In this document: in pieces, positions 6,604 to 26,485 of the stretch
How positions within the stretch are numbered: position 1 is the stretch's first letter
Layout: each line of letters opens with the position of its first letter
NCBI GenBank assembly: GCA_946544115.1
Contig: CAMNLW010000002.1
Location: 6,729-70,728 of the forward strand
Length of the DNA: 64,000 bases
Reading direction: 5' to 3'
From: an uncultured Verrucomicrobiota bacterium
GTDB lineage: Bacteria > Verrucomicrobiota > Kiritimatiellia > RFP12 > UBA1067
Made by a program: the position numbers and the translations under genes
Notes under the pieces: model-generated
The model's database searches: none
Told to the model about the DNA's origin: nothing
The model's input: the letters and a program-made list of their open reading frames with translations, nothing else

Positions 6604-9600
6604 TTACGGCTTGACAGGAAGCGCTTTCACGCGGAAGAATCCGCACGGTTCGGTGCGCGGCGAACTTCGTATCGTCATCGGACCGTTCGCCGTCGCGCGG
6701 ATGAACGACTCCGCATCTGGGGCGAACGCCGCGCTTTCGCCGAGTTCGTCCGCCACCTCGTAGCCGTACCACAGTCCGATGACGGCATTGTCTATGCTGG
6801 ACGAGACGATCGTTTCTCCCGCGTCGTCCGTCACGGCCGCGACGGGCGGATCGTCGCCCGCCGCCGCAAACCGCGGCGCGGCGACCGTCGCCGGATTCAC
6901 ATCGACAACCGCTTGATAGGTGCCCTCGCCGGCTGCGACCGCGCGCACGACGAGATTGTCCGCCGACAATCCCGCCTCCTTGTCGTCCGCCGTCAGCGTC
7001 GGCGCAATCGTCTTGACGACGGCCGCCGCAGCCTTGTCGTTCTTTGCCGCGAACGTCAATACGCCGTCGGCGGACGACAGACCATGCAGGCACGTGCCGT
7101 CGGATGAATTGAGCACGACGGCGCCGATTCCGCCGAAATCGGCGTTTCCGACAATCACCTGATCTGTCAGTTCGTCCAAGTGCGCGGCGATGTAGGCGCG
7201 GCGGTCGGACACGACGTATATGCAGTCGTTCGAATCGCAGACGGTTCCTGCGGGCAGCGTCCACTCGACGCCAAAACGAAGCGTCCATCCGCTCATGTCC
7301 ACGACCTCGTCGTTCGCGTTCGAGACGACAACCACCCCTTCCGCATGCCGGGAGAAATCCAGCGTGATATTCGGCGCGAGCGACTCGATCGAACTCTGCG
7401 CCTCGGGAATGCCGGCGTTATAGCGCGAGCCGTAGCCGATTTTCCACGCCGTGTTCGTGACGGAGTGCGTCACATACAGATGCTCGCGGCGCGGGACGAC
7501 ATAGTTGTTCCAGATGTCTTCGATTCCTTCGTCAATGTCAGACGGACGCTTGCCGTCCGGCCACACGTCAATCGCGGCATCCGAACCGTCGTTCAGCCAC
7601 TTTGCGCCATCCAGCCTGGAATCGGCGCGCATGAGATCAGCCATCTCGCGCATCTTCACCATGAACGGCGTGTCGGCTTCGGCGGTTCCCGGCTCTTTCA
7701 GTTCCTGGTCCATCAGCGTCCTCAGGCGACGCAGGTAGAGTCGGCGGAATTTCGCGGACTGCAAGACCGACTCGAAGCCGTCATTGCCGTTGTTTATTGT
7801 TGAAGTCATCGCAGGCGACGCATAGCATCTGACGCGGTTGCCGCCGTAGAACGGATGGCACTTGAACCAGTCATCCTGTGCCTTGAGGCCCGAAGCGCTC
7901 ATACCGCCATCACGATAATGCTGTCCGAACGTCAGGTTGAAGTCGTAGCCGAGCGGCATCCACGTTCCCGTGCCGCGAGCGCCCTCCTTCATATCCGGGT
8001 TGTCGTAGTAGATGCAGACATTCGCCCAAACGTCATCCATCTCCTGCGTGATACGCGCCGAGGCGAGGTAGTTGAGCCACGCGGGAAGATCAAACTTCTC
8101 GACGACGAACCTCGTCAAATTTTCAACGTCCTCTCCGACAGACTGTGCACCATATTGTTTGAGATAGTAGCGCAATTCATCTTCCAGCACATCGACATTT
8201 TTCTCGTCCTCGTCGTCCGGCGTCTTCTTTTCTGCGCCACCGGCAGATGTGCCGTAAGTGTTGTCATTCTTCGGTCCACTCTTCATCGTCCCGACGTTCT
8301 TGTAGCCGTAGCCGAACTTGTCCAGTCCGTACACGTCCTCGATCAGTTCGTCGGTGAAACGCTCGGAATTGAACGCGAGCTGGTAGAACTCGCCGTTCAG
8401 ATTGCAGCGCACCGGGAAGTCGAACGGCACGAGGTTCCCCATCCTGCGCCACAGCCAGAACGCGATCATCTGGCGCATGTAGCTCGGGTCTGCGAACTCG
8501 CTGATGAGCGAAGTCTTGCGGATTTCCTCTATCGGCTCGCCCGTCACGACGTCTGTCATCGTAAGCGGATGCGCCTTGGCGAAGCGGAGGCCGTGCCCCT
8601 TCTTCGTGAACCCGGCGGAGGTGTTTCCGCGCAGGTCGATTCGAACATAGTCGTAGTAGTTGGAAGTGGACGAATCGTATATCGCCACACGCGCCTGGTT
8701 CGGGACCTTGGAGCGGTCTTGCTTGTCGGCATCGACATCCATCTGCGTCAGGTGGTTGCCGCTCGCGAACATGTGCCAGGTCGGCAGCGTCGCGCTCATC
8801 TGCGTCGCCGTGTCAGGCTCGACGATGGTGCCGTACCACTCGTATCCGTCGTCTGGGTTGTTGAAGCTGGGCGAAGTCCATTCCACTCCTTCGCCGTCGG
8901 TAATCAGCACCTTCCACTGCATAAGATGCCCGGCGGCCGGGAAGTAGCTCGCCGGTATCGCCGCCGTATACTGATCGCCCCACGCCTTCTTGTCGGTGGA
9001 CTTTGTTGTCATAGTCACGACATTAGTTGTCAATGTTGCATCGTCCAAATCCTTCCGATAGACGAGTTTGATGGATTCTATCTTATCTTTTGTGCGCGGC
9101 GAGAAGGTTCCATTCGGATTCATCACCGGATTGATAGGTAGCGTTATCGCATAATCCTCGCCAGGTTTTGCAGGCGGAACAGGGCGAGCGAATTCGTTGG
9201 CCACGTCCGTCTTCTTGAGCGAAGAAATTTCATAGAGCGGGCCGACATTCGGGCCAATGCGCTTCAGCCTGTCCGTAGACGTGTTCGCCCTGCCGCGTGT
9301 CGGCGTGGGACACATCCAGCGACGAGTGCCTTCGCCTTCCGCCGCATCACCGACGATAATCGACCAGCCCTCGGGCAAGTCGCTGGGGATTACGACGGTA
9401 TCGACAACATTGGTCGTCGCGGCATTAGGCATGTAATACAATCTCACAAACGGCGATTTCTTGGGATTCACCTTGTCGCCCCAGACGAGTATGTTGCCGT
9501 AGTCCTTGAATATCTCAGGCTTGCCCTTGAATTTGCCATTCTCAAACGCGCTATCTTTCTGGCTCTTGCTGTTCGAATAGCGTTCGGACGTGTAGAATAT

Positions 9601-12600
9601 CGCACGGCTGCGCGGCGGCACAAGGCGGGACGGGAAGTTGCCAAAACCCGCCGGATCAGTCTTCTTGCCGCGATTGACGCGGATGAAGCGATAATCTGCA
9701 AGATCCGCCCACTGGTCGGATGTGTTTTCGACTTCCACCCAGCCGGATTCAAGTCCGTTTACATCCATACCCTCCAATGCGCCGCGATTTAGCGCATCCG
9801 TCGGCTTTGGCATTATCTCGCCGATGCGAAGGACTGAGCTATCGGCCACTTCTGGGTTGATAGCACCTGTTTCCCTGTAAAGGTTTAATGCGGCCAATTG
9901 ATTTACTACATTCTGTCCTGCAAAGTCGGCAAGGACGCCCAATTGCTGCAAGGTTTGGTCTGCAGAGTCGTCTGTGCGCTCGAAAATAGCACTGCCAACT
10001 CCAAAATCAGTATGGACGGAATAAATCTTCATGCCAGGGAGAGGATATTTATTGCGCCGATCATTACCGAATGTAATAGGACCGGAAATTTCAGACGATG
10101 CCCACTGAATAACAGTTGTACTCGCAATCTCTTTGCCATCGCAATAAAGTTTGGCACCTGTTTGTGCGCCAAAGGCAAATGTCCAAACATGTGGCGCTGT
10201 CCAATTTTCAACTACACTTGAGGTTGCGGTGTCTGTTGTGTCAGTATGTCCCAGAGAGAAGGTACCATTGCCATTGGAGTATGCAAAAGCGTAAAATGTG
10301 TCAGAGTTCCGTTTTAATTGGCAACCGATAATTATGCCAGCCGCCCCTTCCGGCAATTCAGCTAGCACGCTTGCACACACTGCGTTGGTGCTGAAGTGGA
10401 GCGTCTCAACGACACCCTTCGAACCGACCTCGATTCCGCCTAAAGGTCCGCCAATCGCATTTGCCTCGAAACTGGACGGGAATGCCCAGCTGATATCGTC
10501 ACTTGTCGAAGAGTGCTCACACTCCAGAGTTTGGATATCTTCAAGCGCAATATCCTTCAGCCATACGGCATCGTCCGCCTCCGGCGTCAAATCCTTGTTG
10601 TCGGACGGATTGTTCATCGCGTAACGTTGCGAGAAGACGAATACGACTTCATGCGCGCCATCGGGAATGTCGATCGCCGCCGCCGTCCAATCGTTCGTGC
10701 ATTCCGTTTGCGCGAGGACGGGCGAATCGTCGAGAAGTACGTCGAAATGCGAATAGTTGTCGCCCGCGAGCATTGCGCCGCCAAAATAAGACTTGTGCTT
10801 GAACGAAAGACGTTTTGGACCAACTATCGTCGCCTTGAGCGGAGTCGTGCACTGATATGCGTAGTCGGCCTGATTGTAGCTGCGAATGGTGTCGCCTTCA
10901 ACCGTCCACGGATATTTCAGGCTTGTCTGCCAAACAGCATCCACGGCATTGGCGAGAAGATCGCACCGAATGAATTTCACCTTGCGAACAGGCAGGAGGT
11001 AATCGGCACCAGCGGGACGCAGCGCCACGGAAAGAGTCTTATCCGCAGTAATATTCACGACAGGATTTGCGGATGAATATTCAAAGGCATCATCCAGTTT
11101 TTCGATTATTGGATCTGAGCCATCTAAAGTATAGTAGATACTCGCGCCCTCAATTGGGGAAGAAAGACGCACCGAAATTCTCTCGGAAAATACGCGCCCA
11201 GAGGTGACTTCCTCGCCCGTGCCATCGACAAAAACAATCGCTTCGTCGCTATACGTCTTCAAGGCGTCGCGCCATTCAGCGACATACGAACATGTCTCAC
11301 GCAGGACTCGCGCGTTATCGTTGTCGGCATCGCCGAGCACTAGCCCGAATTCGCTCGACGAAGTAGAGAAATACCACGAAGCGTCTTTGTCGCCGCCGTA
11401 TGCCATGATTGTATGGCGCGTCACATTGCCGTCTTTGAAATAAAAACCTCTTCCATACGCGAACGGCGAACAGATGTTATTGCCTTGCGCTCTGGCGTGT
11501 CCGCAGCCCATATTGTGGGCGTTCTCGTGAATCATGGTGTGTTGCTTGCCGATATCGACTGCACGGATACTGCAAACGCTGAAAGCGCACTCATGTTGGC
11601 TTGCCACATTATCAGGCGAATTGAGCGGCGAGCTGTTGCCGAGCGTATTACCAGTCACATCCACAAGTAGCGTCACGGTGTCAGCACCATACATCTCGCG
11701 CGCCGCACGCAGGCCGACAGCCGCATCCACGCCTGCCGCCGCAAGCCCAGGCGCCGAATTGATGTCGCCGTACGTGCCGTCGACCTTGCACACTCCGGCG
11801 AGGCGATACGAATAGAACCTGTCGAGTTTGTTCGTGACAAGCACGTCGTTCATCTTTTTGATCTGCTCTTGCGCGAACTCTTCAAGCGTAACGCCCTTGT
11901 TTGCCACGTACGCCTGCGCGCCATTGTCATACGCGACGAGCACATCGACTGTCGGCACACGGAAGCCTTGCTTCGATTTGAGCGAGAGTGTCTTGGTTGT
12001 GCTGTCATAGACAAGTTCGCGCCCAGCTCCAAGCCCATCCACCTGCATGCTCTGCCAATTTACAAGTCCGCCAGGCGCGACAAGCAATGCAACTCCATCC
12101 TCGTGGGGTTCGCCGCCAAGAACCAGGCGCAGAGTCGAACAGTCAAGCGAGCGTGTACCTGTCTGGACAAGAGAAGCACCATGTGCGAGTGTGATAGTCG
12201 ATTGCTTGGCATAAAGATTCGCAATAGTCACTGGCTTGGCAAGGACAAGCCCTGCACCGTTTATCGTCAGGTTTGCCGTAGCGAAACCAGATACATCGCA
12301 TTCTGCGCCAATTGCAAGATAGCCGTTTGTGACCGTGATTGCGGCTCCATCTGCCTTGGTCGATAGAGACCCTGTCACATTGGCGGAAACGGGATTCCAC
12401 TGGTCACCCAAACGTGTGCCATTTGCGCAAACGAGATTCTTTACGGAAAGCGAGCCGCAGAGTTTTGCGTTGCTGCCGTCGAGGGTCACAATGCCGTCGC
12501 CCGTGATTGCGCCCGAGCCTGTGAGCCTAGCCCCGCTTGCGATGGTATATACGCCGGTGTTTTGGTGCTCGGCATTCATCACAAGTGTCATACCACCACC

Positions 12601-15600
12601 AACCGATGTCGCGCCGACATACGTCAACGGTTGACCATTGAAGCTGTTCTGTATGAATGTGCCAACGCCGGAAATGTTTATGCCACCGTTGGCATTGGCG
12701 AAGTTCGCCGTGCCGTCCGCATAGATGATGTTGTTTGTCAGCGTGGCTTTGTTGGAGAACGTGAACGTCGGCGACCCCTCCCGCAGATAGACATACGGTG
12801 AGGCCGTCTTTTCGGCGGATGAATCAAAGAGAGAATCTGCGCTCACTGATATCGTCGGGGCGTTGTATAACTCGAAAGCGCGGCCATAACTCTTGTTATC
12901 GCCAGCGACGGTGAACGAGCCGCCCTTGAAATTCAACCTGCGGCGGAAATTGACCATTCCCCGGACCTCTATCCCGCCGCCGTTTTCGACATTGACAATC
13001 GAATTGTTGCCATTATCCGCCAAAGCATCGCTTCCCTCGAATACAAGCCTTCCGTTGTCCTTTACGGTAATCTGCAAACTCCCGAACAATCCGCGATTGT
13101 TGCCATTTGCGGTAAACACCGTCGTCCCTTCCCCGATGTTGAATTTAGACGTGCTCCAGAATGTGCCGGAATTGTTGAATTGGTTGAACACCTGCGTATT
13201 TCCGGCGCCTGGGGCGACATTGAGCGTCGAGGCCGCTCCTACTATAATAACATTCGAATTCGTCGCGCACGTCGCGGTGGCGTACTGGCCGAATGGCGCG
13301 TTGAATGTGTAGGTCTTTCCATCCGCGACATAGAAAGACGTGGAATCCATCTTGACGGGGACATTGAACGAAATGCTGTTCGGCGGGGAGAAATTCGCAC
13401 CGGGAAGCGATATGTGCGCATCTTCGTCGCCCCTGGCAAAAGTGTATGCGCTTGTAGTTGCAGAGATTTCGGCAACCTTTGGATTTACTGCCCCTTTGAC
13501 TGTGACGACGGGCGCGGCGTTTTCTGCTATATCTCCGAATGTCACCGTTGGCTGGTTTAGATTCGCAAAGCCGTACACCGAATCATTCCACGCAAGTACT
13601 GCCGAATCATCCATCCATCTGCCGTTGCCATTCTGCCCTGCTTCGCCGGACCATGCGAGCGGAACATTTTCCGTAAACGAGACGCTGCGGAGGAAGAGCC
13701 CGTGCGTTTTGCCCGTCGTCGCCCCGATGTTGTTCTGGCTGTACACAAAGCGCACATCATGTGTCCCCTCGGGAATAGCGACACTTCGCGTGATGTCGCT
13801 GGAGGATCCCTTTGTGTCGCTCATAACAGTTTCGCCGTCGATTGTCACGGTAAAGGCGCTGCCCGTCAAGAACATTGTCTTGTATGTGAAACTCATTAGC
13901 TTTGGTCCTTCAACGAGAGTGCCAAGCCATGTATAATTGTGTAGTGCACCGTCGGCGAACGGGTAGTTGAAAATGTAGGTGCTGACGCTTGTGCCCCATT
14001 CATTCTGCGGCGACCCCGACCACACGCGGGTCGAATCGCCCAGCCATGTGCTCATATCGGCATTCCCTTTGTTCTTACTCCTGTAGTTAGATGCAAAAAC
14101 TGCGCTCGCCTTGCCATTCCCGTCAACCGCAATGGCCTTTATCGTGCAGTTTTTCGTTACGCTTATGGGTGACGAATATTGTGCCGATGACGTCGTCGGG
14201 GTCGAGCCATCGGTTGTGTAGTATATCGTCTGCCCGGTCTTGTCTGCTGTGAGTGTGACCGGGATTGTGCCGTTGAACGATGCCACGTCACGAGGTGAAA
14301 TGGCTACTTCGGTCTGGTTGTCCACCAGCTGCAGGTCATCAAGCCAAACGCCGGATTTTTTGTAGTGGGAGTTGCCCTGATTGTAGAGAATGGCGAGTTT
14401 GTGGCTTCCCGCTGGAATGTCTATATAGTCCTGCCGCCATGTCATGCTCGATTCTGCGGTCGAAAAGTAGCCGCCGTCGTCGCAAACCACTGAAAAACGC
14501 CCCCACAGCCCTTTGCCTTCGGAGAGAGAAGGGAAGTTTGACTTGTGCCTGAAATACAACCGCTTGGGACCTTCTGTTATGGTTGAGATGTAGGAGATTT
14601 TCTCCGGTCCGTAAGTTTCGCCGAATTCATAGTTGTGCAGCACCGTCTTTGCGCCGTTTGTCCAGTCAGAATCGCTTGCACCCGACCATGGATAGTCCCC
14701 GTCCGTCTGCCAGGCGAGACCGGCAATCGGCAACGTTCCCTTAACAACCTTGATTGAGCGCATTGACTCCGCGACACCGTTTGTGACAATGCATGCAGTA
14801 AGAGTGGTTGTGTCTTTTATGGTTATGCTTGTATTGAAGCGATATGGTATGGAGGTCGTGTTAGGAGTCGTTCCGTCGAGAGTCAGGTAGATTCTCGCGC
14901 TTTCTGGATAGGAACTGCTACCGGTTAGCGTAATCTGTATTGAATCTTCGAAGATTTGCCCGTGGCTGATATCATTGCCACTGGAGTCAAGGAATCGGAC
15001 ATCCCACTCGTACGGAATGGAATGCTCGCGCCATTCGCTGACGCCTTTGTAGGAGAGAGTCAGGACTTTGCGGTTGTTGTTCTTTTCCTCCGTACCTACG
15101 GGTACGCCATATTCCTTCGGCGTTATGTCCGGAGTGGAGTAGTATGGGATTGCTTCGAAATAATAGTCAGCATCTGATGTGTAGTTGTATCCCATCACAG
15201 TATAGCGCGGTTTCCCAGATGCATCAAGGAAGTGGTAGCCGCAGGAATACGAAGTCGATTGGGGGCCAGATTTTGATCCTTGCCGGTTGCTATGTCCGCA
15301 GCCCATGTTGTGTCCAACCTCGTGCGACATAGTGTAGCGGTTCCAGACGCGCCGGATATGGCAGACGTTGCAGGTCTGCCCGATGCTGTTTGCTACCACC
15401 GCATTACTTGCAATGGCATCGCCGTCCGCACCACCCAGTGGATAGCCTATACCAGTTGTATAGGAACTTGCGCTTTCATCGACATCCACAAGCAGCGTGA
15501 CGATATCTGCGCCATAATAATCTCGCAGCGCGGGTATATGGCTGAAAGGCGCTTCGCCTACACGTAGCGAATTCAGAATCGGGTTGGTTATGTTTGGATA

Positions 15601-16368
15601 TGTCGCATTGACTTGAGTGATGCCGACAAGACGGTAGAAAAAGAGGTGGTCAAGCTGCGACTTCTGTAGCACTATGTTCATCTTGTTGATGGCATAGTCG
15701 GCAAACTCCTCGATCGTATCGGCATCTGGGCAGTTACCACCTTCCACCCACGCCTTCGCCCCCTTGTCAAAGGCGACTAGGATATCTACGACGCTCTTTT
15801 GCTCTGCGAGAGGGAATTCATTGCCGGATGCGCCAAGCAGCGTGCGCGACTTTTTGGTTGATGTGGTCTTGGTTTCTTCGACGGCTGGCTGAGGGACCTC
15901 GATATCGCCGCCGCATGTGCCGCACTCGCCGTCATCCATCTGCGAATTGTCGCGCTCGACTATGAGCACCTTGCCGTCCTTGCAGCGGACGGTGTACTGC
16001 CGCCGGTTCATGAAATCGTCCACGGATATGCGGGCGGACTTTTCGCTTACCTTCACAATCGCCGAGGCCGAGCCATTCGCATCCTTCGCGATAAAGCTCT
16101 GCCCCGCGATACCGGCCGGCGGTGCGGAAACGATTCTGAGGGCATAGTCCACATCGCCGAAAAGCCTGAGGTTCAGCGTGTCGCCTACTGCGACTGCGGG
16201 GACTGTCCCCACATTCGTCGACATCTCCGCACGCCGCAACACAGGCGCTTCGGCGTCATGCGCCACGCCACTGGAGAAGTCGAGTGTATACTCCGCCGCA
16301 CAGACCGCAACCGACCAAAAGAGCGACAACGCGATAAGCAGCACCGTCGCATTTTTTCCTCCAGACAT
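6604..16368 (-). CDS. Giant secreted multidomain protein (3254 aa): two metzincin-like Zn-metalloprotease domains, chitobiase/Fn3-like domains, a beta-helix region, a CotH kinase-like domain and a C-terminal lamin-tail domain
   Basis: Start assigned to the MSGGKNATVLLIALSLFWSVAVCAAEY signal peptide, with GGAGG 8 nt upstream and TGGTATAAT further upstream. The HExxHxxGxxH zinc site appears twice (HEVGHNMGCGHS; HENAHNMGCGHA). Chitobiase-C-like segments are present (TLDGTTPN..., YYTLDGSDP). Gly/Asn/Thr-rich beta-helix repeats are present. CotH motifs are present (DYVRIDLRGNTSAGFTKKGHGLRFAK; VCIYYDNPDMKEGARGTGTWMPLGYDFNLTFGQHY; KFRRLYLRRLRTLMD). A C-terminal LTD is present (DMSGWTLRFGVEWTLPAGTVCDSNDCIYVV). 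Confidence 0.7.
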   Translation of the reverse strand: MSGGKNATVLLIALSLFWSVAVCAAEYTLDFSSGVAHDAEAPVLRRAEMSTNVGTVPAVAVGDTLNLRLFGDVDYALRIVSAPPAGIAGQSFIAKDANGSASAIVKVSEKSARISVDDFMNRRQYTVRCKDGKVLIVERDNSQMDDGECGTCGGDIEVPQPAVEETKTTSTKKSRTLLGASGNEFPLAEQKSVVDILVAFDKGAKAWVEGGNCPDADTIEEFADYAINKMNIVLQKSQLDHLFFYRLVGITQVNATYPNITNPILNSLRVGEAPFSHIPALRDYYGADIVTLLVDVDESASSYTTGIGYPLGGADGDAIASNAVVANSIGQTCNVCHIRRVWNRYTMSHEVGHNMGCGHSNRQGSKSGPQSTSYSCGYHFLDASGKPRYTVMGYNYTSDADYYFEAIPYYSTPDITPKEYGVPVGTEEKNNNRKVLTLSYKGVSEWREHSIPYEWDVRFLDSSGNDISHGQIFEDSIQITLTGSSSYPESARIYLTLDGTTPNTTSIPYRFNTSITIKDTTTLTACIVTNGVAESMRSIKVVKGTLPIAGLAWQTDGDYPWSGASDSDWTNGAKTVLHNYEFGETYGPEKISYISTITEGPKRLYFRHKSNFPSLSEGKGLWGRFSVVCDDGGYFSTAESSMTWRQDYIDIPAGSHKLAILYNQGNSHYKKSGVWLDDLQLVDNQTEVAISPRDVASFNGTIPVTLTADKTGQTIYYTTDGSTPTTSSAQYSSPISVTKNCTIKAIAVDGNGKASAVFASNYRSKNKGNADMSTWLGDSTRVWSGSPQNEWGTSVSTYIFNYPFADGALHNYTWLGTLVEGPKLMSFTYKTMFLTGSAFTVTIDGETVMSDTKGSSSDITRSVAIPEGTHDVRFVYSQNNIGATTGKTHGLFLRSVSFTENVPLAWSGEAGQNGNGRWMDDSAVLAWNDSVYGFANLNQPTVTFGDIAENAAPVVTVKGAVNPKVAEISATTSAYTFARGDEDAHISLPGANFSPPNSISFNVPVKMDSTSFYVADGKTYTFNAPFGQYATATCATNSNVIIVGAASTLNVAPGAGNTQVFNQFNNSGTFWSTSKFNIGEGTTVFTANGNNRGLFGSLQITVKDNGRLVFEGSDALADNGNNSIVNVENGGGIEVRGMVNFRRRLNFKGGSFTVAGDNKSYGRAFELYNAPTISVSADSLFDSSAEKTASPYVYLREGSPTFTFSNKATLTNNIIYADGTANFANANGGINISGVGTFIQNSFNGQPLTYVGATSVGGGMTLVMNAEHQNTGVYTIASGARLTGSGAITGDGIVTLDGSNAKLCGSLSVKNLVCANGTRLGDQWNPVSANVTGSLSTKADGAAITVTNGYLAIGAECDVSGFATANLTINGAGLVLAKPVTIANLYAKQSTITLAHGASLVQTGTRSLDCSTLRLVLGGEPHEDGVALLVAPGGLVNWQSMQVDGLGAGRELVYDSTTKTLSLKSKQGFRVPTVDVLVAYDNGAQAYVANKGVTLEEFAQEQIKKMNDVLVTNKLDRFYSYRLAGVCKVDGTYGDINSAPGLAAAGVDAAVGLRAAREMYGADTVTLLVDVTGNTLGNSSPLNSPDNVASQHECAFSVCSIRAVDIGKQHTMIHENAHNMGCGHARAQGNNICSPFAYGRGFYFKDGNVTRHTIMAYGGDKDASWYFSTSSSEFGLVLGDADNDNARVLRETCSYVAEWRDALKTYSDEAIVFVDGTGEEVTSGRVFSERISVRLSSPIEGASIYYTLDGSDPIIEKLDDAFEYSSANPVVNITADKTLSVALRPAGADYLLPVRKVKFIRCDLLANAVDAVWQTSLKYPWTVEGDTIRSYNQADYAYQCTTPLKATIVGPKRLSFKHKSYFGGAMLAGDNYSHFDVLLDDSPVLAQTECTNDWTAAAIDIPDGAHEVVFVFSQRYAMNNPSDNKDLTPEADDAVWLKDIALEDIQTLECEHSSTSDDISWAFPSSFEANAIGGPLGGIEVGSKGVVETLHFSTNAVCASVLAELPEGAAGIIIGCQLKRNSDTFYAFAYSNGNGTFSLGHTDTTDTATSSVVENWTAPHVWTFAFGAQTGAKLYCDGKEIASTTVIQWASSEISGPITFGNDRRNKYPLPGMKIYSVHTDFGVGSAIFERTDDSADQTLQQLGVLADFAGQNVVNQLAALNLYRETGAINPEVADSSVLRIGEIMPKPTDALNRGALEGMDVNGLESGWVEVENTSDQWADLADYRFIRVNRGKKTDPAGFGNFPSRLVPPRSRAIFYTSERYSNSKSQKDSAFENGKFKGKPEIFKDYGNILVWGDKVNPKKSPFVRLYYMPNAATTNVVDTVVIPSDLPEGWSIIVGDAAEGEGTRRWMCPTPTRGRANTSTDRLKRIGPNVGPLYEISSLKKTDVANEFARPVPPAKPGEDYAITLPINPVMNPNGTFSPRTKDKIESIKLVYRKDLDDATLTTNVVTMTTKSTDKKAWGDQYTAAIPASYFPAAGHLMQWKVLITDGEGVEWTSPSFNNPDDGYEWYGTIVEPDTATQMSATLPTWHMFASGNHLTQMDVDADKQDRSKVPNQARVAIYDSSTSNYYDYVRIDLRGNTSAGFTKKGHGLRFAKAHPLTMTDVVTGEPIEEIRKTSLISEFADPSYMRQMIAFWLWRRMGNLVPFDFPVRCNLNGEFYQLAFNSERFTDELIEDVYGLDKFGYGYKNVGTMKSGPKNDNTYGTSAGGAEKKTPDDEDEKNVDVLEDELRYYLKQYGAQSVGEDVENLTRFVVEKFDLPAWLNYLASARITQEMDDVWANVCIYYDNPDMKEGARGTGTWMPLGYDFNLTFGQHYRDGGMSASGLKAQDDWFKCHPFYGGNRVRCYASPAMTSTINNGNDGFESVLQSAKFRRLYLRRLRTLMDQELKEPGTAEADTPFMVKMREMADLMRADSRLDGAKWLNDGSDAAIDVWPDGKRPSDIDEGIEDIWNNYVVPRREHLYVTHSVTNTAWKIGYGSRYNAGIPEAQSSIESLAPNITLDFSRHAEGVVVVSNANDEVVDMSGWTLRFGVEWTLPAGTVCDSNDCIYVVSDRRAYIAAHLDELTDQVIVGNADFGGIGAVVLNSSDGTCLHGLSSADGVLTFAAKNDKAAAAVVKTIAPTLTADDKEAGLSADNLVVRAVAAGEGTYQAVVDVNPATVAAPRFAAAGDDPPVAAVTDDAGETIVSSSIDNAVIGLWYGYEVADELGESAAFAPDAESFIRATANGPMTIRSSPRTEPCGFFRVKALPVKP

Positions 16369-16445
16369 GTTCCACCTCCTCTGTTTGGTGCAATTATACC
16401 ATAATTTACCCTGCACCGCCCAATCGGCGAACACCGGATTGCACG

Positions 16446-17810
16446 CTAGTTCTTGAACGAGTGAATCGGCGCTGGGATGCGGCCGCGTCGGGAAACAAGC
16501 CCTTCGCATGAAAACTTAGACACTTTCATAACCGGCGCGTGGCCTAGGAGTCCGCCGAAGTTCACGCTGTCGCCGACTTTCTTCCCCGCGACCGGTATCA
16601 CTCGAACCGCCGTCGTCTTCTGGTTCACCATTCCTATCGCCGCTTCGTCGGCTATTATACCGCTTATCGTCGCCGCGCTCGTGTCGCCGGGTATCGCAAT
16701 CATGTCCAGCCCGACGGAGCATACGCACGTCATGGCCTCAAGCTTTTCTATCGTGAGCGCGCCGGCGTTCACCGCGTCGATCATGCCCTGGTCCTCCGAG
16801 ACGGGTATGAACGCGCCGGAGAGCCCGCCCACATAAGAGCTCGCCATTACGCCTCCCTTCTTCACCTGGTCGTTGAGGAGCGCGAGCGCGGCGGTCGTGC
16901 CGGGAGCGCCCGGTTCTTCAAGACCGATTTCGCGCAGGATGTCCGCAACGCTGTCGCCGACAGCCGGTGTTGGCGCGAGCGAGAGGTCGATTATGCCGAA
17001 TGGCACGCCCAGGCGCTTCGCCGCCTCCTGCGCGACAAGCTGCCCGACACGCGTTATCTTGAAAGCCGTGCGCTTTATCGTCTCGCAGAGCGTCTCAAAG
17101 TCCGCCCCGCGAATGGACTTGAGGACGTGGTTCACAACACCAGGACCCGACACGCCGACGTTTATCACCGCGTCGGCTTCGCTCACGCCGTGGAACGCAC
17201 CCGCCATGAACGGGTTGTCGTCCGGCGCGTTGCAGAGGACTACGAGCTTCGCGCAGCCGATGGAATCGCGGTCTTTTGTCCGCTCTGCCGTCGCTTTCAC
17301 TATTTCGCCCATGAGCCGCACGGCGTCCATGTCGATTCCCGTTTTGGTGGAGCCCACGTTCACCGACGAGCATAGGCGCTCGGTCGTCGCCATCGCTTCG
17401 GGGATTGAGCGTATGAGCAGCTCGTCGGCGAGGGTCATTCCCTTCGAGACGACCGCCGAATAGCCGCCTATGAAGTTGACGCCAAGCTTCTTCGCCGCGC
17501 GGTCGAGGGTTTTGGCTATCTTCACGAAATCGCCCGGCTTTTTGCAGCACGCCGAGCCGACGATCGCCGCGGGGGTTATGGATATGCGCTTGTTCACGAT
17601 CGGTATTCCGAATTCGCGCCCTATCTCGTCACCAGTCTTCACAAGGTCTTTGGCGAGACGGGTCAACTTGGCGTATATCCTGTCGCAGGTCGTCTTGAGG
17701 GACGCGTCGGCGCAGTCGAGAAGCGACACGCCCATCGTAATCGTGCGCACGTCCAGATTCTCCTCGAGGATCATCTTGTTCGTCTCGAGGACTTCGAATA
17801 TATTGATCAT
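16446..17810 (-). CDS. UPF0210 (DUF711, PFL-like) family protein
   Basis: 454-aa product. N-terminus MINIFEVLE...[14 protein letters not shown] and the conserved length and motifs of the UPF0210 family. Forms the usual operon with the ACT-domain partner. Confidence 0.6.
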
Positions 17811-20721: not shown

Positions 20722-21816
20722 TTAGCTTATCCTCAAAGGCATCAGCACATAGAGGAACGGTATGGAGCACTTTATTACCGCAGGTGAATGGCCGTTGTTC
20801 AGGTTTATGGAAACCTCGTCGTCGTCAATCGCCTTGAGAGGATCCATCACATAGTTCGGATTGAACATTATCTCGATCGTCTCACCGCCGTACTTGATCG
20901 GCACTTCGTCGGTAGCCTCGCCTATCTCGCTCGCGGCGGATGTCACAGTAAGCCTGTTCGCGTCGAAAATGAGCTTGGTCGAATGGGCCTCGTCCATCGT
21001 CATCACGCTCGCGCGCTCAAGAGCGTCGAGCAGCAACTGCCTGTCTATGACAATCGTGTGCTGGCATTCCGCCGGAATTACCTGACGGTAGTTGGGATAG
21101 GCGTCGTCCATAAGCTTGGAGTATATCTGGACCGACCCGAGATTGAAGCTTATCTTCGTCCTCTGTATGTTGATTTTTACATCCCCTTCCCCGGCAAGAG
21201 AGCGCTGAAGTTCCTGCACCGCCTTCGACGGCAGCACAATATCGCGCTCGGAGGTCTTCGGGAACTCCATTTCCCTCTCAACCAACGCAAGCCTGCGCCC
21301 GTCGGTCGCGACCATTGTAAGCTTCGCGTCCTTGAAACTCATGAGAACTCCCTTGAGCGTCCGGCGCGTATCGTCCTGCGACGCCGCATACGCCGTCTTC
21401 CTGAGCATCTCCTGAAGCGTCTGCCTAGGCATGATGTATTCGCAGCTGTCCTCTTCGCCGCCGAGTTTCGGGAAATCCGCCTCAGGCTTGCCGTTGAGCT
21501 TGTAGCTGGCGCTTCCCGCGCGTATAACCGCCTTCTCGCCGCCGTCTATGTCGACCTCTACAATCCCCTCCGGAGCCTTCCCGATAAGGTTGAACAGAAG
21601 CTTCACCGGAAGCGTCGACGCCCCTTCCACGGAAACCTCGCACTCTACAGTGCTCACTATTGATATATCCAGATCGGTCGTCGTAAGCTTGAGCTCCCCG
21701 CCGCGCGCCTCGATCATCACATTCTGCAGAATCGGCAACGAACCCTTGCCGGCGACAATGCTCTGCACAGGCTTTAGAGCCTCGATGAACTTGCTGCGAA
21801 CTATGCTGAATTTCAT
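20722..21816 (-). CDS. dnaN: DNA polymerase III beta sliding clamp
   Basis: 364-aa product. MKFSIVRSKFIEALKPVQSIV...LPILQNVMIEA and the three-domain length are typical of DnaN. Lies immediately downstream of dnaA. Confidence 0.85.
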   Translation of the reverse strand: MKFSIVRSKFIEALKPVQSIVAGKGSLPILQNVMIEARGGELKLTTTDLDISIVSTVECEVSVEGASTLPVKLLFNLIGKAPEGIVEVDIDGGEKAVIRAGSASYKLNGKPEADFPKLGGEEDSCEYIMPRQTLQEMLRKTAYAASQDDTRRTLKGVLMSFKDAKLTMVATDGRRLALVEREMEFPKTSERDIVLPSKAVQELQRSLAGEGDVKINIQRTKISFNLGSVQIYSKLMDDAYPNYRQVIPAECQHTIVIDRQLLLDALERASVMTMDEAHSTKLIFDANRLTVTSAASEIGEATDEVPIKYGGETIEIMFNPNYVMDPLKAIDDDEVSINLNNGHSPAVIKCSIPFLYVLMPLRIS

Positions 21817-22071: not shown

Positions 22072-23490
22072 TCAGACGCTTTTATCCTCCACCCCGTCCA
22101 GCCCCAGGCCGAAATCCGTGACAATCGAAATCAGGTTTTCCTTGAGTTCCGGTTCTACATCCAGCCTCTTCGCTATCGTCTTCACTCCGTGAAGAACAGT
22201 CGCGTGCGACTTTTCAAACTCCTTCGCGATCTCCGGCAGGCTCTTTGTCGTGTACTTTCGCGCGATATACATCGCGAGCTGGCGCGGCGTAACAAGCGAC
22301 ACCGTCCTTTCTATTGAAAGTATCTGCTCCACCGTCACGGAGTATTTAGCCGCCACCGCCGCCTGAATCTCCTTTATAGTGACCTTTTTCTGCTTCTTCT
22401 CCTTTTCTATGAAGTCTTTGAGAAGGTGCGATAGTATCTCGTTGTTGAGTTTTATGGTGCTGTCGAGTTTCATCATAACCGAAACCTTCCCAAGCGCGCC
22501 CTCCATCGCCCTCACATGGCTCTTTATGTTCTGGGCTATGAATTTAAGCGTGTCTTCTGGAACTGACGGTACCATACCCTCTGACTTCTTCTTCAGAATC
22601 GCAAGACGCGTCTCGTAGCTCGGCTGCTCGATCTCCTGGACCATACCCCATTCAAATCGCGATATAAGCCTCGGTTCTATCCCTGGCAGATCCTTCGGGG
22701 CGACATCGCTAGTCATTACAATCTGCTTGCCGTCGTTATGCAGAGAGTTGAATGTATTGAAGAATTCCTCCTGAAAGTCCTTTCCTCGGCTCATGAACTG
22801 TATATCGTCGACCAGGAGAACGTCTATCTTGCGGTACCTGTCGCGAAACTGCTGTATAGAGGAGCTCGTAAGTGCGTTCACATATTCGTTCAGAAACCTC
22901 TCGGCTGTTAGATAGCATACCGACGAAGAAGGATTCTTCCTCTTTATGTCGTTTCCTATAGCCTGCATTATGTGGGTTTTGCCAAGCCCCGTCCCGCCGT
23001 GGATGAAAAGAGGATTGTACCCCTTCTTGCCCGGCTCCTTCGCAGCGCCTTTCGCCGCCGCGTGAGCCCAGCTGTTCGACGGACCCGTCACGAACTCTTC
23101 AAACGTGTAGTCTTCGTTGAGTGGCATAGTCGAAACGAAATGCGCCGCCGGCTTTTCAGGCGCCGCCGCGTCCTTGCTCTTGCGATGCGGCACCACTATC
23201 GCCGGGTTCAAGCTCTCGTCGAACTTGAACTCCAGCCTTATAGCCTCGCCCCCGTCGGATAGAACAAGCGCGTTTTTGAGTTTCGTCGAGTAGTTGTCGC
23301 GCAGCATCTCCGCCGCAAACTTGTTCGCGGTGAATATGGTGTAAAGACCGTCCTTCTCGGTTATTGAAGTCACCATGGAGAAATGGCGCCTCGCCTGATC
23401 TTTCTCCTCTTGGGTGGATAGCGTCGAGACATAAAGGTCTTTCGCCTTTTGCCAAGCGTCTTTCGCCCTTGTGTCCTGCATGTCTTTCAT
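22072..23490 (-). CDS. dnaA: Chromosomal replication initiator protein
   Basis: 472-aa product. AAA+ Walker A GGTGLGKTH, sensor motifs and a C-terminal DNA-binding domain (VTIKEIQAAVAAKYSV...). TGGTATTAT promoter upstream. Confidence 0.9.
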   Translation of the reverse strand: MKDMQDTRAKDAWQKAKDLYVSTLSTQEEKDQARRHFSMVTSITEKDGLYTIFTANKFAAEMLRDNYSTKLKNALVLSDGGEAIRLEFKFDESLNPAIVVPHRKSKDAAAPEKPAAHFVSTMPLNEDYTFEEFVTGPSNSWAHAAAKGAAKEPGKKGYNPLFIHGGTGLGKTHIMQAIGNDIKRKNPSSSVCYLTAERFLNEYVNALTSSSIQQFRDRYRKIDVLLVDDIQFMSRGKDFQEEFFNTFNSLHNDGKQIVMTSDVAPKDLPGIEPRLISRFEWGMVQEIEQPSYETRLAILKKKSEGMVPSVPEDTLKFIAQNIKSHVRAMEGALGKVSVMMKLDSTIKLNNEILSHLLKDFIEKEKKQKKVTIKEIQAAVAAKYSVTVEQILSIERTVSLVTPRQLAMYIARKYTTKSLPEIAKEFEKSHATVLHGVKTIAKRLDVEPELKENLISIVTDFGLGLDGVEDKSV

Positions 23491-23955
23491 CTTTTTCTTC
23501 TTTCAAGTTTCGCATATATAATACCATAATTTTTGACGCCATGGGCATAAAAGAAATAGTCATATGTCTACACTTTATCAACAGCCTCATGTTGATAACT
23601 ATTGTCTCCCGCGCGAGGACGCAATTTGAATGTTCCTGAATATATACCGTTGCCGACGCCCTGTTACAATTGACCCTCCCAAACAACCCCTCGCGAAACC
23701 ACTGATTTTATTGCGGCTTTTGGCCACCACCCCTCTCAAAGCCCTATAAACATTGGCTCTCGACGCCTGTTGATAACCGTTAGATAATGGTTCACATAAG
23801 TTCACAATTTTCCCCTTGACAAAATGCCGCCTTGTCATGAAACCCTTGTTTTTCAGGCTTTTTTGAACATTTCTCCTCCGCAGATTGACGCATAATACAG
23901 AAAATATTTTTGTTCACAACCTAGTAGATAATATGGTATAATGCCCGCCAGTGAA
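23491..23955. promoter_or_regulatory. dnaA-mnmG intergenic region with DnaA-box-like motifs; candidate oriC or dnaA autoregulatory region
   Basis: A 465-bp non-coding spacer, lower in GC than its flanks. Contains ttatcaaca, tgttgataa (twice) and TGTGAAC-type variants (gttcacataag, gttcacaatt, ttgttcacaac). Also contains divergent promoters for dnaA and mnmG. Confidence 0.45.
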
Positions 23956-26013
23956 ATGAACAGCAATCACTTCGAAATCATCGTTGTCGGCGGCGGACAC
24001 GCCGGAGCGGAAGCAGCCCTCGCGTCCGCCAGAATGGGAGCCAAAACACTCCTCGTCACCTCATGCCGTGACGCCATCGCGCGAATGCCCTGCAACCCTT
24101 CTATCGGAGGCCTCGCCAAAAGCCATCTCGTCTACGAACTGGACGCAATGGGCGGCGAAATGGGTAGAAACGCCGATGCCACGGCCCTTCAGTCAAAAAC
24201 CCTCAACCTCAGCCGCGGCCCCGCAGTATGGGCCACCCGCGCCCAATGCGCCAAGCTGGAATACACCCGCAGAATGCAGCAGGTTGTCGAAACCCAGCCC
24301 AACTTGACCGTACTCGAGGACAGCGTAATAGACTTGATCGTCGACAATGATGGTCAAACTCTGTCTCCTCCAAGTGCTGATGGCCAAACTGCGCTTGACC
24401 AATTCTCAGTCTGCGGAGTCAAAACTCTTCTCAGTGGCTCTTTCTACGCACGCTCCATAGTCGTAACCGCCGGTACTTCCCTTCGTGGCAGAATATGGAT
24501 AGGAAAAGAGTCAAAAGAGAGCGGCGGCGATTCCCGCCCTGCCGTGAACCAGCTCTCGGCCGCGCTTTCCCGCCTTGGCTTTGACTTGATACGCCTTAAA
24601 ACCGGTACTCCTCCGCGCCTCAAGGCCTCATCCTGCGATTTTACCAGATGTTTGCGGCAGGATGGCGAGTCGCCCCGCCCATTGTTCCACGTGGAACAAT
24701 CTACAGCCTCCGATTCCTCTTCCATATCATCGCCTCCAGGCGCCGCAATGTTCCACGTGGAACAATCTGCCGCCTCCGATCCCTCTTTCATATCATCGCC
24801 TCCAGGCTCCGCAATGTTCCACGTGGAACAATCTACAACCTCCGATCCATCTTCCATATCATCGCCTCCAGGCGCTGCAATGTTCCACGTGGAACAATCT
24901 GCCGCGCTTTCTCCTGCTGAAAAGGGCGGCAATCCCCCGATGTTCCACGTGGAACATTGCCCGCCGCTGCCCGAAATGCCGTGCTGGCAGACCCATACAA
25001 CGCCTCTCACCCACCAGATAATACGGGATAATCTATCCAATTCAGCCCTCTACGGCGGCGCGATCCAGGGAACCGGCGTTCGATACTGCCCGTCGATAGA
25101 GGATAAAATCGTCCGCTTTGCCGACGCCGACCAGCACCATGTTATGCTGGAACCCGAGGACTCCGCCGGGACGGTGATCTATCCCAACGGTCTCAGCTGC
25201 AGCCTGCCGCGCGATGTACAGGAGAAAATGGTTCATTCTGTGCCGGGCCTTGAAAACGCCGAGTTCCTGGCTTACGCCTATGCCATAGAATATGACGGAA
25301 TCGACGCGCGCGAGCTTAAACATTCCCTTGAATCCAAGCGCATACGCGGCCTGTTCTTTGCCGGACAGGTCAACGGCACGACCGGCTACGAGGAAGCCGC
25401 CGCACAAGGCTTCATGGCAGGCGTGAACGCCGTCTTTTCCGCGCGCGGTGAAGAGCCGCTTGTCTTGAGCCGTCAAGATGCCTACATAGGCGTCATGATA
25501 GACGATCTCGTGACGAAGGGGACAGATGAACCCTACAGAATCTTCACCAGCCGCGCCGAGCGCCGCCTTATCCTGCGCCAGGATAACGCCCGCTACCGCC
25601 TTGCCGATGCCGCCGAGCGGATAGGCATACGTCCGCGAGCCTTCCTGGACGAGACGCGCCGCTTTATGGCGATCCTCGATAAAGCCCTTGCCGAAAACCG
25701 CGCTGCCACCGTTATCGACGCCTCTCTGCCGCCGGAAGCATGCCGACGCCTTGACGATGAACTTGCAATTATGCGACGCTACGCGCCATACATAGAGCAG
25801 GAAAAACGGGCGGCAGAACGGGCCAAAGCCGACGAAACATTGGCCATTCCCCGGTGGCTGGACTACGACAAGTGCGTCGCCGTGAGGTTCGAAAGCCGCG
25901 AAAAGCTGAAGAAGTACCGCCCCGAAAACCTTGCGCAGGCTTCTCGCATACCGGGCGTGAACCCCAGCGATGTGGCGATTCTTGCTATTATAATAAGGAG
26001 AGGCCATGTATAA
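23956..26013 (+). CDS. mnmG: tRNA uridine-5-carboxymethylaminomethyl modification enzyme MnmG/GidA, carrying an in-frame repeat insertion
   Basis: [21 protein letters not shown] (FAD-binding GGGHAG), [13 protein letters not shown] and [16 protein letters not shown] all align with E. coli MnmG. Start taken at 23956 because the ATG at 23941 lies inside the TGGTATAAT -10 element. Confidence 0.85.
24672..24960 (+). repeat. In-frame tandem repeat inside mnmG (4 x 66 bp plus a 60-bp variant), each unit carrying the perfect palindrome TGTTCCACGTGGAACA
   Basis: Palindromes start at about 24683, 24749, 24815, 24881 and 24941. Encodes repeated FHVEQS(A/T)(A/T)SD(P/S)S(S/F)ISSPPG(A/S)AM units. The native MnmG segment (P-x-FSF in E. 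coli) corresponds to the final PMFHVEH copy. Confidence 0.85.
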
Positions 26014-26049
26014 TCGCCCCTGAGAAGGGGGCTTGCTGCAAGGATGGAA

Positions 26050-26166
26050 AAAAGTTAAAAAAGTCTGTCATCGATCGTCACGCCGTGCATACATTCTCTT
26101 GGTTAAACTTGTTGCTCGAACCGAAGCGTCATCTTCAGCGCTTCGGTTTCGTGTATCTAGAGCACG
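26050..26166 (+). repeat. Copy 1 of a ~117-bp direct repeat that contains a GC-rich hairpin (cgaaccgaagcg...cgcttcggtttcg)
   Basis: Near-identical to 26320-26436 (2-3 mismatches). Lies 36 bp after the mnmG stop. Confidence 0.8.
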
Positions 26167-26199
26167 TCTTCCCTCCTAAAAACACCCCCCTGGGGGTTG

Positions 26200-26310
26200 A
26201 AGGGCGCTGGTTGGGGGGTAGCACCGTGCTACCCCTAGGGGTAGCGCCGCGCTACCCCCGGGGTAGGGTTCGGCTACCCTCAGAGGGTAAAAAAACTACC
26301 CCCTCCCTGC
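26200..26310 (+). repeat. Tandem GGGGTAGC...GCTACCCC palindromic hairpins
   Basis: ggggtagcaccgtgctacccc and ggggtagcgccgcgctacccc are perfect 10-bp-arm hairpins. They are followed by degenerate copies (gggtagggttcggctaccc; gagggtaaaaaaactaccccctc). Confidence 0.7.
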
Positions 26311-26319
26311 CGCCAAAAA

Positions 26320-26436
26320 AAATCGTAAAAAAGTTTGTCATCGGTCGTCACGCCGTGCATACATTCTCTTGGTTAAACTTGTTGCTCGAACCGAAGCGTC
26401 ATCTTCAGCGCTTCGGTTTCGTGTATCTAGAGCACG
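26320..26436 (+). repeat. Copy 2 of the ~117-bp direct repeat
   Basis: Same sequence as 26050-26166, offset by 270 bp. Followed immediately by the strong promoter at 26486. Confidence 0.8.
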
Positions 26437-26485
26437 CCTCTCCTCCCGGTTTTTCCACCCGCAAAAAAAAAATTCGCCACCCCCA

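What the first reader, a model, noticed from the sequence alone, without database searches (positions are those of the whole stretch)
24672..24960. In-frame 66-bp tandem repeat with a perfect 16-bp palindrome inside the essential tRNA-modification gene mnmG
Four 66-bp units plus a 60-bp variant insert about 95 extra Ser/Pro-rich residues (FHVEQSxxSDxSxISSPPGxAM)n. The insertion lies exactly where E. coli MnmG has the short P-x-FSF segment, and the reading frame is preserved. Every unit carries TGTTCCACGTGGAACA, a perfect palindrome with a CACGTG core. This could be a protein-binding site embedded in coding DNA, a recombination or slippage hotspot, or a hairpin that causes pausing in the mRNA. 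A repeat expansion in a conserved housekeeping enzyme next to the origin is unusual.
Basis: seen in the sequence. Interest (0 to 1): 0.7.

Follow-up and report, generated by a model that had tools for sequence, protein, structure and literature searches.

The report
Centromere (parS) array inside mnmG
The repeated palindrome is the standard bacterial chromosome-segregation site (parS); here five copies are written in frame into a floppy loop of the tRNA-modifying enzyme MnmG beside the replication origin, and the same arrangement, with 1-7 copies, runs through a whole group of bacteria (Verrucomicrobia, Kiritimatiellae and relatives).

Summary
An intact mnmG (23941-26013, +) carries five exact TGTTCCACGTGGAACA palindromes (spacing 66/66/66/60 bp). 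No other site within 3 mismatches occurs on the accessible ~75.5 kb of the contig. Selection acts on the DNA, not the peptide. In relatives the same 16-mer sits in the same MnmG loop in all three reading frames (FHVE, CSTWN, VPRGT). Codon choice is invariant (P about 1e-22). The 16-mers stay identical where spacers have diverged 36%. All 120 closest MnmG homologs carry 1-7 inferred sites. The nearest relatives have 3, and the window gained two 22-codon units. An unbiased metagenome scan finds close pairs of this 16-mer mostly in or beside mnmG, or near parB. The insert is predicted to be a disordered loop replacing a ~16-residue connector. mnmG lies next to dnaA-dnaN in the window and in every close relative examined. 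Best reading: an origin-proximal centromere array embedded in frame in a housekeeping gene and amplified by tandem duplication. Main gap: no parA/parB on this contig, and ParB binding is untested. This is a new variant of a known kind, of moderately high interest.

The parts
23941..26013 (+). mnmG (gidA), intact 690-aa ORF that hosts the array
   Evidence: Pfam GIDA 469 bits plus SAM_GIDA_C. PDB MnmG chains match at E=1e-148. The AF2 model core matches Aquifex and E. coli MnmG, TM about 0.70.
24676..24978 (+). In-frame insert (about aa 246-346) holding the tandem array: three 66-bp units, one 60-bp unit and a fifth site. It encodes a Ser/Pro-rich, low-complexity loop.
   Evidence: TRF 66-bp period. 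Unit dissection. AF2 pLDDT is 22-35 with no secondary structure over residues 242-341, against a core at 70-96.
24683..24698 (.). parS-1 (TGTTCCACGTGGAACA), overlaps the conserved P-x-F of MnmG
   Evidence: Exact match. Identical to P. aeruginosa parS2/parS3. F249/H250/E252 are invariant in 120 homologs.
24749..24764 (.). parS-2 (recently duplicated unit)
   Evidence: Lies in the 44-codon block missing from the closest relative L204.
24815..24830 (.). parS-3 (recently duplicated unit)
24881..24896 (.). parS-4 (followed by a 44-nt spacer that is unrelated to the others beyond its first ~9 nt)
24941..24956 (.). parS-5, abuts the conserved [11 protein letters not shown] core
23491..23940 (.). dnaA-mnmG intergenic region, candidate oriC; three 8/9 DnaA boxes (TTATCAACA at 23575 +, 23598 -, 23776 -)
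   Evidence: GC drops to 0.49 here. The oriC assignment is an inference.
22072..23490 (-). dnaA
   Evidence: Pfam Bac_DnaA 214 bits plus Bac_DnaA_C.
20722..21816 (-). dnaN
   Evidence: Pfam DNA_pol3_beta, three domains.

Best explanation
The five palindromes are chromosomal parS sites, the 16-bp centromere where ParB dimers load. By established knowledge of ParABS, ParB then closes as a CTP-dependent clamp, slides onto flanking DNA, builds the partition complex, recruits SMC, and is pulled apart by ParA. In this lineage the origin-proximal centromere is written in frame into a dispensable, disordered surface loop of MnmG, about 0.75-1 kb from the dnaA-mnmG intergenic region. The tandem repeat is an in-frame amplification of a parS-bearing unit, probably by slippage or unequal exchange between identical 16-mers. 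It raised the number of loading sites from 3 in the closest relatives to 5 here. The Ser/Pro-rich FHVEQ... peptide is a tolerated by-product of the DNA element, not a functional protein motif. Shown here: sequence identity to validated parS; DNA-level rather than peptide-level conservation; clade-wide occurrence with variable copy number; dnaA linkage; predicted disorder of the insert. Inferred: ParB actually binds, more copies give stronger loading, and this is the main centromere of the chromosome.
For: (1) Identity: TGTTCCACGTGGAACA equals parS2/parS3 of P. aeruginosa, the P. putida parS and the Burkholderiales chromosomal centromere. Of the 8 papers listed for this string (9 hold it), at least 7 are on ParB/parS. 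(2) Position: the only parS-like sites (up to 3 mismatches) on the accessible ~75.5 kb of the contig are these five, next to dnaA-dnaN. mnmG is adjacent to dnaA-dnaN in the window and in the four relatives examined. (3) DNA-level selection: in 16 PVC-group genomes whose MnmG is only 36-60% identical, the same loop holds exact or 15/16 copies (34 loop sites in these 16 genomes plus the window: 30 exact and 4 with one change at the outermost base), read in three frames as FHVE, CSTWN or VPRGT. All 16 in-mnmG cases from an unbiased metagenome scan use the same loop and again all three frames. FHVE always uses TTC-CAC-GTG-GAA; the joint probability under each gene's own codon usage, counting one site per genome, is about 1e-22. 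In L205 the spacers differ by 36% while all five 16-mers are identical. (4) Copy number: all 120 nearest homologs have 1-7 inferred sites, and spacers are unrelated between lineages. DNA was verified in L203 (7/7), L204 (3/3), L205 (5/5) and L206 (5 exact plus 1 one-mismatch). The window differs from L204 by one clean 44-codon indel and no change in any parS codon. (5) Link to the Par system: of 120 metagenome contigs with close exact pairs, 16 are inside mnmG, 23 lie close to mnmG (most within ~100 bp of the gene), and 27 have parB in the fetched stretch. Outgroup genomes carry parS in the flanks of mnmG, and parB lies near mnmG in a number of them, but none carries parS in this loop. (6) Tolerance: the insert replaces a ~16-residue connector of solved MnmG and is predicted disordered. 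(7) A verrucomicrobium, A. muciniphila, is reported to have ParABS homologs (PMC10197239).
Against: No parA or parB was found on the 76.9-kb contig (75,456 of 76,885 bases examined) or within 10 kb of mnmG in any PVC-group locus. The rest of this MAG could not be searched, so the cognate reader is unconfirmed for this genome. ParB binding is untested. Units 1-3 are young (8-14% spacer divergence), so their identical palindromes alone prove little. A few relatives show decayed copies (MFHMEQ, MFQVEQ, CAC>CAT), so not every copy is indispensable. The oriC assignment rests on gene order and three imperfect DnaA boxes. The genomes used in the codon test are related, so the 1e-22 figure overstates independence. 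The frame argument does not depend on it.
Confidence: 0.85

Rival explanations
1. The 16-mer is read by a DNA-binding protein other than canonical ParB, such as a ParB paralog (Noc-like) or another regulator. The array would then act in nucleoid occlusion or in regulating mnmG/dnaA rather than as the segregation centromere.
For: No parAB is found near the array in this lineage. The sites lie inside a transcribed gene close to dnaA.
Against: The sequence is the exact canonical parS and co-occurs with parB on many environmental contigs. From general knowledge, Noc-type sites differ from parS. Conservation from Verrucomicrobiales to Kiritimatiellae of exactly the ParB consensus is best explained by ParB.
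Confidence: 0.07
2. Neutral loop expansion. One or two anchored sites are functional, and the extra copies are passengers of replication slippage with no selective value.
For: Units 1-3 are recent (4-7 differences per 50-nt spacer). The closest relatives manage with 3 sites. Occasional decayed copies exist.
Against: Old arrays with unrelated or 36%-diverged spacers still keep every 16-mer exact. Of 120 homologs, 117 keep two or more sites. Multi-site arrays also arise in non-coding DNA beside parB and mnmG, as expected if several sites are favoured.
Confidence: 0.05
3. The palindromes act in the mRNA, as hairpins or long-range pairing that pause ribosomes or regulate mnmG translation.
For: The 316-nt RNA folds at -125.7 kcal/mol against -80.1 for shuffles, z = -8.6.
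Against: Any repeated self-complementary 16-mer gives that result. RNA stems tolerate compensatory change, yet across dozens of genomes the sequence never covaries; it stays the exact parS. The same 16-mer pairs occur in intergenic DNA next to parB and upstream of mnmG in Rubritalea and other Verrucomicrobiales.
Confidence: 0.02
4. FHVE(Q/H) is a functional peptide repeat of this MnmG, for example a partner-binding motif, and the DNA palindrome is incidental.
For: F249, H250 and E252 are invariant in the 120 closest homologs. Frame FHVE accounts for 385 of 394 inferred sites.
Against: The same DNA is read as CSTWN or VPRGT in other members. Synonymous positions are frozen. The region is predicted disordered. 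Outgroup MnmG proteins lack the motif.
Confidence: 0.01

Closest known systems
Chromosomal parS sites of the ParABS system (B. subtilis, P. aeruginosa parS1-4, M. xanthus, C. crescentus)
   Same: Identical 16-bp palindrome (equal to PAO1 parS2/3). Origin-proximal clustering. Several sites per cluster. Location inside coding sequence is common (9 of 10 PAO1 sites are intragenic).
   Different: Here the sites form a head-to-tail, in-frame tandem array inside one conserved housekeeping gene, in a dedicated loop that recurs across a whole bacterial group. parAB is not adjacent. In the model organisms the sites are scattered singly over several genes or intergenic regions spanning kilobases.
Conserved gidA-gidB-parA-parB origin-region gene cluster
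   Same: The same association of mnmG/gidA with the origin and with the partition system. Many environmental contigs have parS pairs directly flanking mnmG.
   Different: In this lineage the linkage is kept through the cis site inside mnmG, while the parAB genes have moved elsewhere or are unlinked.
Intragenic parS of repABC replicons (PMC9040568)
   Same: Centromere sites located within protein-coding genes of the replicon's own maintenance region.
   Different: Those are plasmid or chromid RepB sites with a different sequence, not tandem in-frame arrays in a tRNA-modification enzyme.
In-frame tandem repeats (VNTR-like) in bacterial genes
   Same: Unit length is a multiple of 3, copy number differs between close relatives, and the product is low-complexity.
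   Different: The conserved part of the unit is a cis-acting DNA site, not the peptide. The spacer is free to vary.

Membership tests
Chromosomal parS (ParB-binding centromere) | 16-bp palindrome matching the consensus TGTTNCACGTGAAACA | tested here: met
   Five exact TGTTCCACGTGGAACA. Identical to experimentally studied PAO1 parS2/parS3 and the P. putida parS.
Chromosomal parS (ParB-binding centromere) | Clustered near the replication origin | tested here: met
   All five sites lie 0.75-1 kb from the dnaA-mnmG intergenic region, and dnaA-dnaN are adjacent. The same linkage holds in relatives. oriC itself is inferred.
Chromosomal parS (ParB-binding centromere) | Sequence conserved as DNA, independent of coding context | tested here: met
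   Three reading frames, frozen synonymous positions, and identical 16-mers amid diverged spacers.
Chromosomal parS (ParB-binding centromere) | Cognate ParB (and ParA) encoded in the same genome | tested here: inconclusive
   Absent from the 76.9-kb contig and from 10-kb flanks in PVC-group loci. ParABS homologs are reported for A. muciniphila. The same 16-mer pairs co-occur with parB on 27 or more of 120 metagenome contigs.
Chromosomal parS (ParB-binding centromere) | Specific ParB binding or loading and a role in segregation | not testable with these tools
   Needs ChIP-seq, EMSA or genetics.
MnmG/GidA tRNA U34 modification enzyme | FAD-binding GIDA domain plus C-terminal helical domain, intact ORF, MnmG fold | tested here: met
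   Pfam GIDA 469 bits and SAM_GIDA_C 70 bits. PDB 2ZXH at E=1.5e-148. Foldseek top hits are all MnmG.
Variable-number in-frame tandem repeat | Copy number differs between close relatives by whole units while the frame is kept | tested here: met
   The window has 5 sites against 3 in homologs of about 90% identity, one clean 44-codon indel. The range across the clade is 1-7.

The most novel reading that the evidence does not exclude
Across Verrucomicrobiota, Kiritimatiellota and Lentisphaerota, the chromosome's principal (possibly only) centromere is encoded in frame inside one disordered loop of MnmG. This anchors parS to the origin through a gene that cannot easily be lost. The number of ParB loading sites evolves by in-frame tandem duplication, so a cis-acting DNA element dictates part of a housekeeping protein's sequence. 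Similar coding arrays in rsmG and in Wzy-like genes of other lineages suggest that 'centromere-in-ORF' is a general and overlooked design.
Probability: 0.5. Interest if true: 0.75.

Novelty: new variant of a known kind. Interest (0 to 1): 0.62.

Why it matters
It gives a clean natural example of dual coding, in which a chromosome-segregation element shapes the sequence of an unrelated enzyme and leaves peptide 'fossils' (FHVE, CSTWN, VPRGT) that can be used to find centromeres from protein data alone. It predicts where ParB loads in a large and poorly studied bacterial group whose cell biology is unusual and mostly known from metagenomes. It provides a natural series of 1-7 closely spaced parS sites for testing how site number and spacing affect ParB clamp loading and SMC recruitment. 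It also marks the origin region in fragmented MAGs. For annotation, it explains a puzzling low-complexity insert in MnmG as harmless.

Tried and rejected
(1) ParA/ParB in the window, the rest of the contig and all PVC-group flanks: motif scan, a home-built ParB HMM over all ORFs, and Pfam-annotated gene lists of the contig ends. None found. One look-up failed because the ORF start was not the called one. (2) L191's ParB-like ORF beside mnmG was a stop-to-stop read-through with only a partial ParB_N match, so it was not informative. (3) Mobile-element or MITE origin of the unit: the spacer occurs nowhere else in the window. Rejected. (4) Rfam scan of 20-30 kb: no RNA family. (5) The first AF2 run with 21 sequences was too poor to use (mean pLDDT 56); it was repeated with 120 sequences. 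(6) The genome-contig scan was swamped by a generic MnmG peptide pattern. Only about 19 of 80 loci were relatives, and the rest served as outgroup controls. (7) Helical phasing of sites: spacings of 35-377 bp show no single phase, and 44 of 51 are multiples of 3, so no phasing model is proposed. (8) Literature searches for parS in gidA/mnmG, in Verrucomicrobia or Kiritimatiellae, for tandem or intragenic parS, and for the peptide signatures found no prior description. Livny et al. 2007 could not be read, so prior mention in subscription literature cannot be excluded. (9) A eukaryote-style bHLH/E-box reading of CACGTG was rejected as irrelevant once the full 16-mer was recognised.

Full report
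OBSERVATION. The window holds an intact 690-aa mnmG/gidA gene at 23941-26013 (+). It matches Pfam GIDA at 469 bits, split into two stretches by an insert, plus the C-terminal GidA domain. Inside it are five exact copies of TGTTCCACGTGGAACA, starting at 24683, 24749, 24815, 24881 and 24941 (spacing 66, 66, 66, 60 bp). All sit at the same codon phase and encode (L/M)FHVE(Q/H). Tandem Repeats Finder reports a 66-bp period with 3.4 copies. Allowing 3 mismatches, no other site exists in the 64-kb window; chance expectation is 0.25, and 0 of 100 shuffles reach 5. None exists in the other accessible parts of the 76.9-kb contig either. Units 1-3 are homologous, with 4-7 differences per 50-nt spacer. 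The fourth spacer is unrelated after about 9 nt, and the fifth palindrome abuts the conserved core. dnaA (22072-23490, -) and dnaN (20722-21816, -) lie divergently upstream. The 450-bp dnaA-mnmG spacer has three 8/9 DnaA boxes and the lowest GC in the neighbourhood.

WHAT THE PALINDROME IS. The 16-mer is letter for letter the chromosomal parS centromere. It equals parS2 and parS3 of Pseudomonas aeruginosa PAO1, the P. putida parS and the Burkholderiales chromosomal centromere, and it differs by one base from the Myxococcus xanthus consensus. Nine papers in the library hold the string; of the eight listed, at least seven concern ParB/parS and one concerns plasmid-stabilisation vectors. Intragenic parS is ordinary: nine of ten PAO1 sites are in coding sequence.

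THE CONSERVATION IS ON THE DNA, NOT THE PEPTIDE. Four lines of evidence support this. (a) I examined 16 genomes of the PVC group: Kiritimatiellae, Victivallales, Opitutia, Verrucomicrobiales including Rubritalea profundi, and Chthoniobacterales. Their MnmG is only 36-60% identical to the window's. In these genomes and the window, the same loop holds 34 parS sites, 30 exact and 4 differing only at the outermost base. (b) The 16-mer is embedded in all three reading frames: as FHVE, as CSTWN (L003-L006) and as VPRGT (L008). (c) Where it reads FHVE, the codons are always TTC-CAC-GTG-GAA. Under each gene's own codon usage, counting one site per genome, the joint probability is about 1e-22. The genomes are related, so that number is generous, but the frame argument does not depend on it. 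(d) In L205, five sites at a 48-bp period are identical while their spacers differ by 36% pairwise. About 60 outgroup genomes (Firmicutes, Proteobacteria, Planctomycetes, Chlamydiae and others) have no parS in this loop, although many have parS in the flanks of mnmG, and a ParB HMM finds parB within 10 kb of mnmG in some of them. Two exceptions are informative. A Binatia MAG has the AT-type parS CGTTTCACGTGAAACA in the same loop, read FS-FHVKH. An Akkermansia MAG has an exact site elsewhere in mnmG, at aa 522.

CLADE-WIDE ARRAY WITH VARIABLE COPY NUMBER. All 120 closest MnmG homologs (about 60-100% identity, 589-864 aa) carry the peptide signature of 1-7 sites. The distribution is 1 site in 3 proteins, 2 in 30, 3 in 49, 4 in 13, 5 in 19, 6 in 5 and 7 in 1. 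The spacers are low-complexity, 7-130 aa long, and unrelated between lineages, with clear independent expansions such as the alternating two-unit repeat of P0077. DNA was checked for four of them: 7/7, 3/3 and 5/5 sites exact, and 5 exact plus one synonymous CAC>CAT. The window's nearest relatives (about 90% identity) have three sites. Codon alignment with L204 shows 44 synonymous and 18 non-synonymous codon differences, one clean 44-codon gap (two 22-codon units), and no change in any parS codon. The window's array is therefore a recent 3-to-5 expansion. A few relatives show a decayed copy (MFHMEQ, MFQVEQ), so single copies can be lost.

INDEPENDENT, UNBIASED CHECK. In 16 loci the pair is inside mnmG, always in this loop and again in all three frames. 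In 23 it lies close to mnmG, in most cases within ~100 bp of the gene. In 27 a parB gene is in the fetched stretch. The remaining 54 are mostly short contigs or unknown context. This ties the 16-mer to the Par system and the origin region in nature at large. It also shows that close multi-site clusters are a common design, and the in-frame mnmG version is one recurrent form of it. Other coding hosts turned up as well: Wzy_C (O-antigen-ligase-like) ORFs with 6-10 exact sites, and an extended rsmG/gidB with three.

WHY THE PROTEIN TOLERATES IT. Alignment to solved MnmG puts the insert between Aquifex 2ZXH residues ~249 (PPPKFS) and ~266 (QVNCWITYT), a ~16-residue connector. An AlphaFold2 model built from 120 sequences has pTM 0.71. 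Its core superposes on Aquifex, Chlorobium and E. coli MnmG (TM about 0.70 normalised to the target). Most core blocks have pLDDT 70-96, but residues 242-341 have pLDDT 22-35 and no secondary structure. An earlier model from 21 sequences was too weak to use. The insert is thus best seen as a disordered tether. Whether it is clear of the MnmE and tRNA surfaces was not tested.

MECHANISM (inferred from established ParABS biology). ParB dimers recognise each 16-mer, bind CTP, close into clamps and slide onto neighbouring DNA. Several adjacent sites multiply the loading rate and nucleate the partition complex at the origin, which ParA segregates and which loads SMC. Placing parS inside mnmG, which stays next to dnaA-dnaN in every close relative examined in either orientation, keeps the centromere welded to the origin. 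The identical 16-mers themselves provide substrates for slippage or unequal exchange, and only multiples of 3 bp survive: 44 of 51 measured spacings are multiples of 3. No consistent helical phasing was seen.

WEAK POINTS. No parA or parB lies on the contig or within 10 kb of mnmG in any PVC-group locus, and I could not search the rest of this MAG. ParABS homologs are reported for Akkermansia muciniphila (PMC10197239). Binding is untested. The oriC assignment is by gene order. The strong predicted RNA structure (z = -8.6) is an unavoidable consequence of repeated palindromes, and it could have side effects on translation.

RIVALS. A non-ParB reader (0.07) cannot be excluded without the full genome. 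Passenger copies from neutral slippage (0.05) fit the young units 1-3 but not the old arrays that remain exact. An mRNA hairpin function (0.02) is contradicted by the complete absence of covariation and by the same sites occurring in non-coding DNA. A functional FHVE peptide (0.01) is refuted by the three-frame result. A mobile-element origin is rejected because the spacer occurs nowhere else.

NOVELTY. parS, intragenic parS and multi-site origin clusters are all well known. I did not find any description of a centromere array carried in frame in a specific loop of MnmG across Verrucomicrobia, Kiritimatiellae and Lentisphaerae, with copy number evolving by tandem duplication. The 2007 parS survey by Livny et al. 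could not be read, so an earlier mention cannot be excluded. I class this as a new variant of a known kind, with interest 0.62.

Noticed in passing
L165:2298-4550(+), L185:10714-12966(-), L166:3-1343(+), L145:217-1878(-): Long ORFs matching Pfam Wzy_C (O-antigen ligase-like) contain 10, 10, 7 and 6 exact parS 16-mers. L145 scores 52.8 bits, above the gathering score; the others are below it. This may be another lineage's coding-embedded centromere array.
   Followed up: partly
L131:16-1071(+): An rsmG/gidB ORF (Pfam GidB 118 bits) is extended to 352 aa and carries three exact parS, with three more just downstream.
   Followed up: partly
L055 (Akkermansia sp. MAG), mnmG nt 1567 / aa 522: An exact parS lies inside mnmG at a different position (KKMFHVEHLD, in the C-terminal half) rather than in the loop. 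This looks like an independent acquisition in the same gene.
   Followed up: partly
L033 (Binatia MAG), mnmG nt 676: The AT-type parS CGTTTCACGTGAAACA sits in the same MnmG loop, read as FS-FHVKH and fused to the native FSF motif. This may be convergence, and may hint at how the site first arose.
   Followed up: partly
window 26048-26176 and 26318-26446: A 129-nt direct repeat (94% identical) lies just downstream of mnmG, each copy with the hairpin CCGAAGCG-N10-CGCTTCGG. It has no Rfam family and was found only in this genome's own contigs among all fetched loci.
   Followed up: partly
window 26215-26266: A GC-rich 23-bp tandem repeat (GGGGTAGCGCCGCGCTACCCCTA, 2.3 copies, itself palindromic) lies between the two 129-nt repeat copies.
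   Followed up: no
L011 (Rubritalea profundi) -134 and -95; L012 and L019 -52 relative to the start of the mnmG match: Verrucomicrobiales carry additional parS (exact in L011 and L012, one mismatch in L019) immediately upstream of mnmG as well as one in the loop.
   Followed up: no
L203, L205, L206 versus window and L204: The mnmG-dnaA-dnaN linkage is kept but the orientation flips: divergent in the window and its close relatives, co-directional (mnmG then dnaA then dnaN) in more distant ones.
   Followed up: no
window 6604-16509 (-): A giant 3301-aa ORF is annotated with Reprolysin, CotH, CHB_HEX_C and LTD domains in the record's precomputed Pfam hits. It is probably a secreted or surface protein.
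   Followed up: no
L206 mnmG nt 964; proteins P0015 and P0022: Single decayed sites occur within otherwise exact arrays: TGTTCCATGTGGAACA (a synonymous His codon change), and the peptides MFHMEQ and MFQVEQ.
   Followed up: partly
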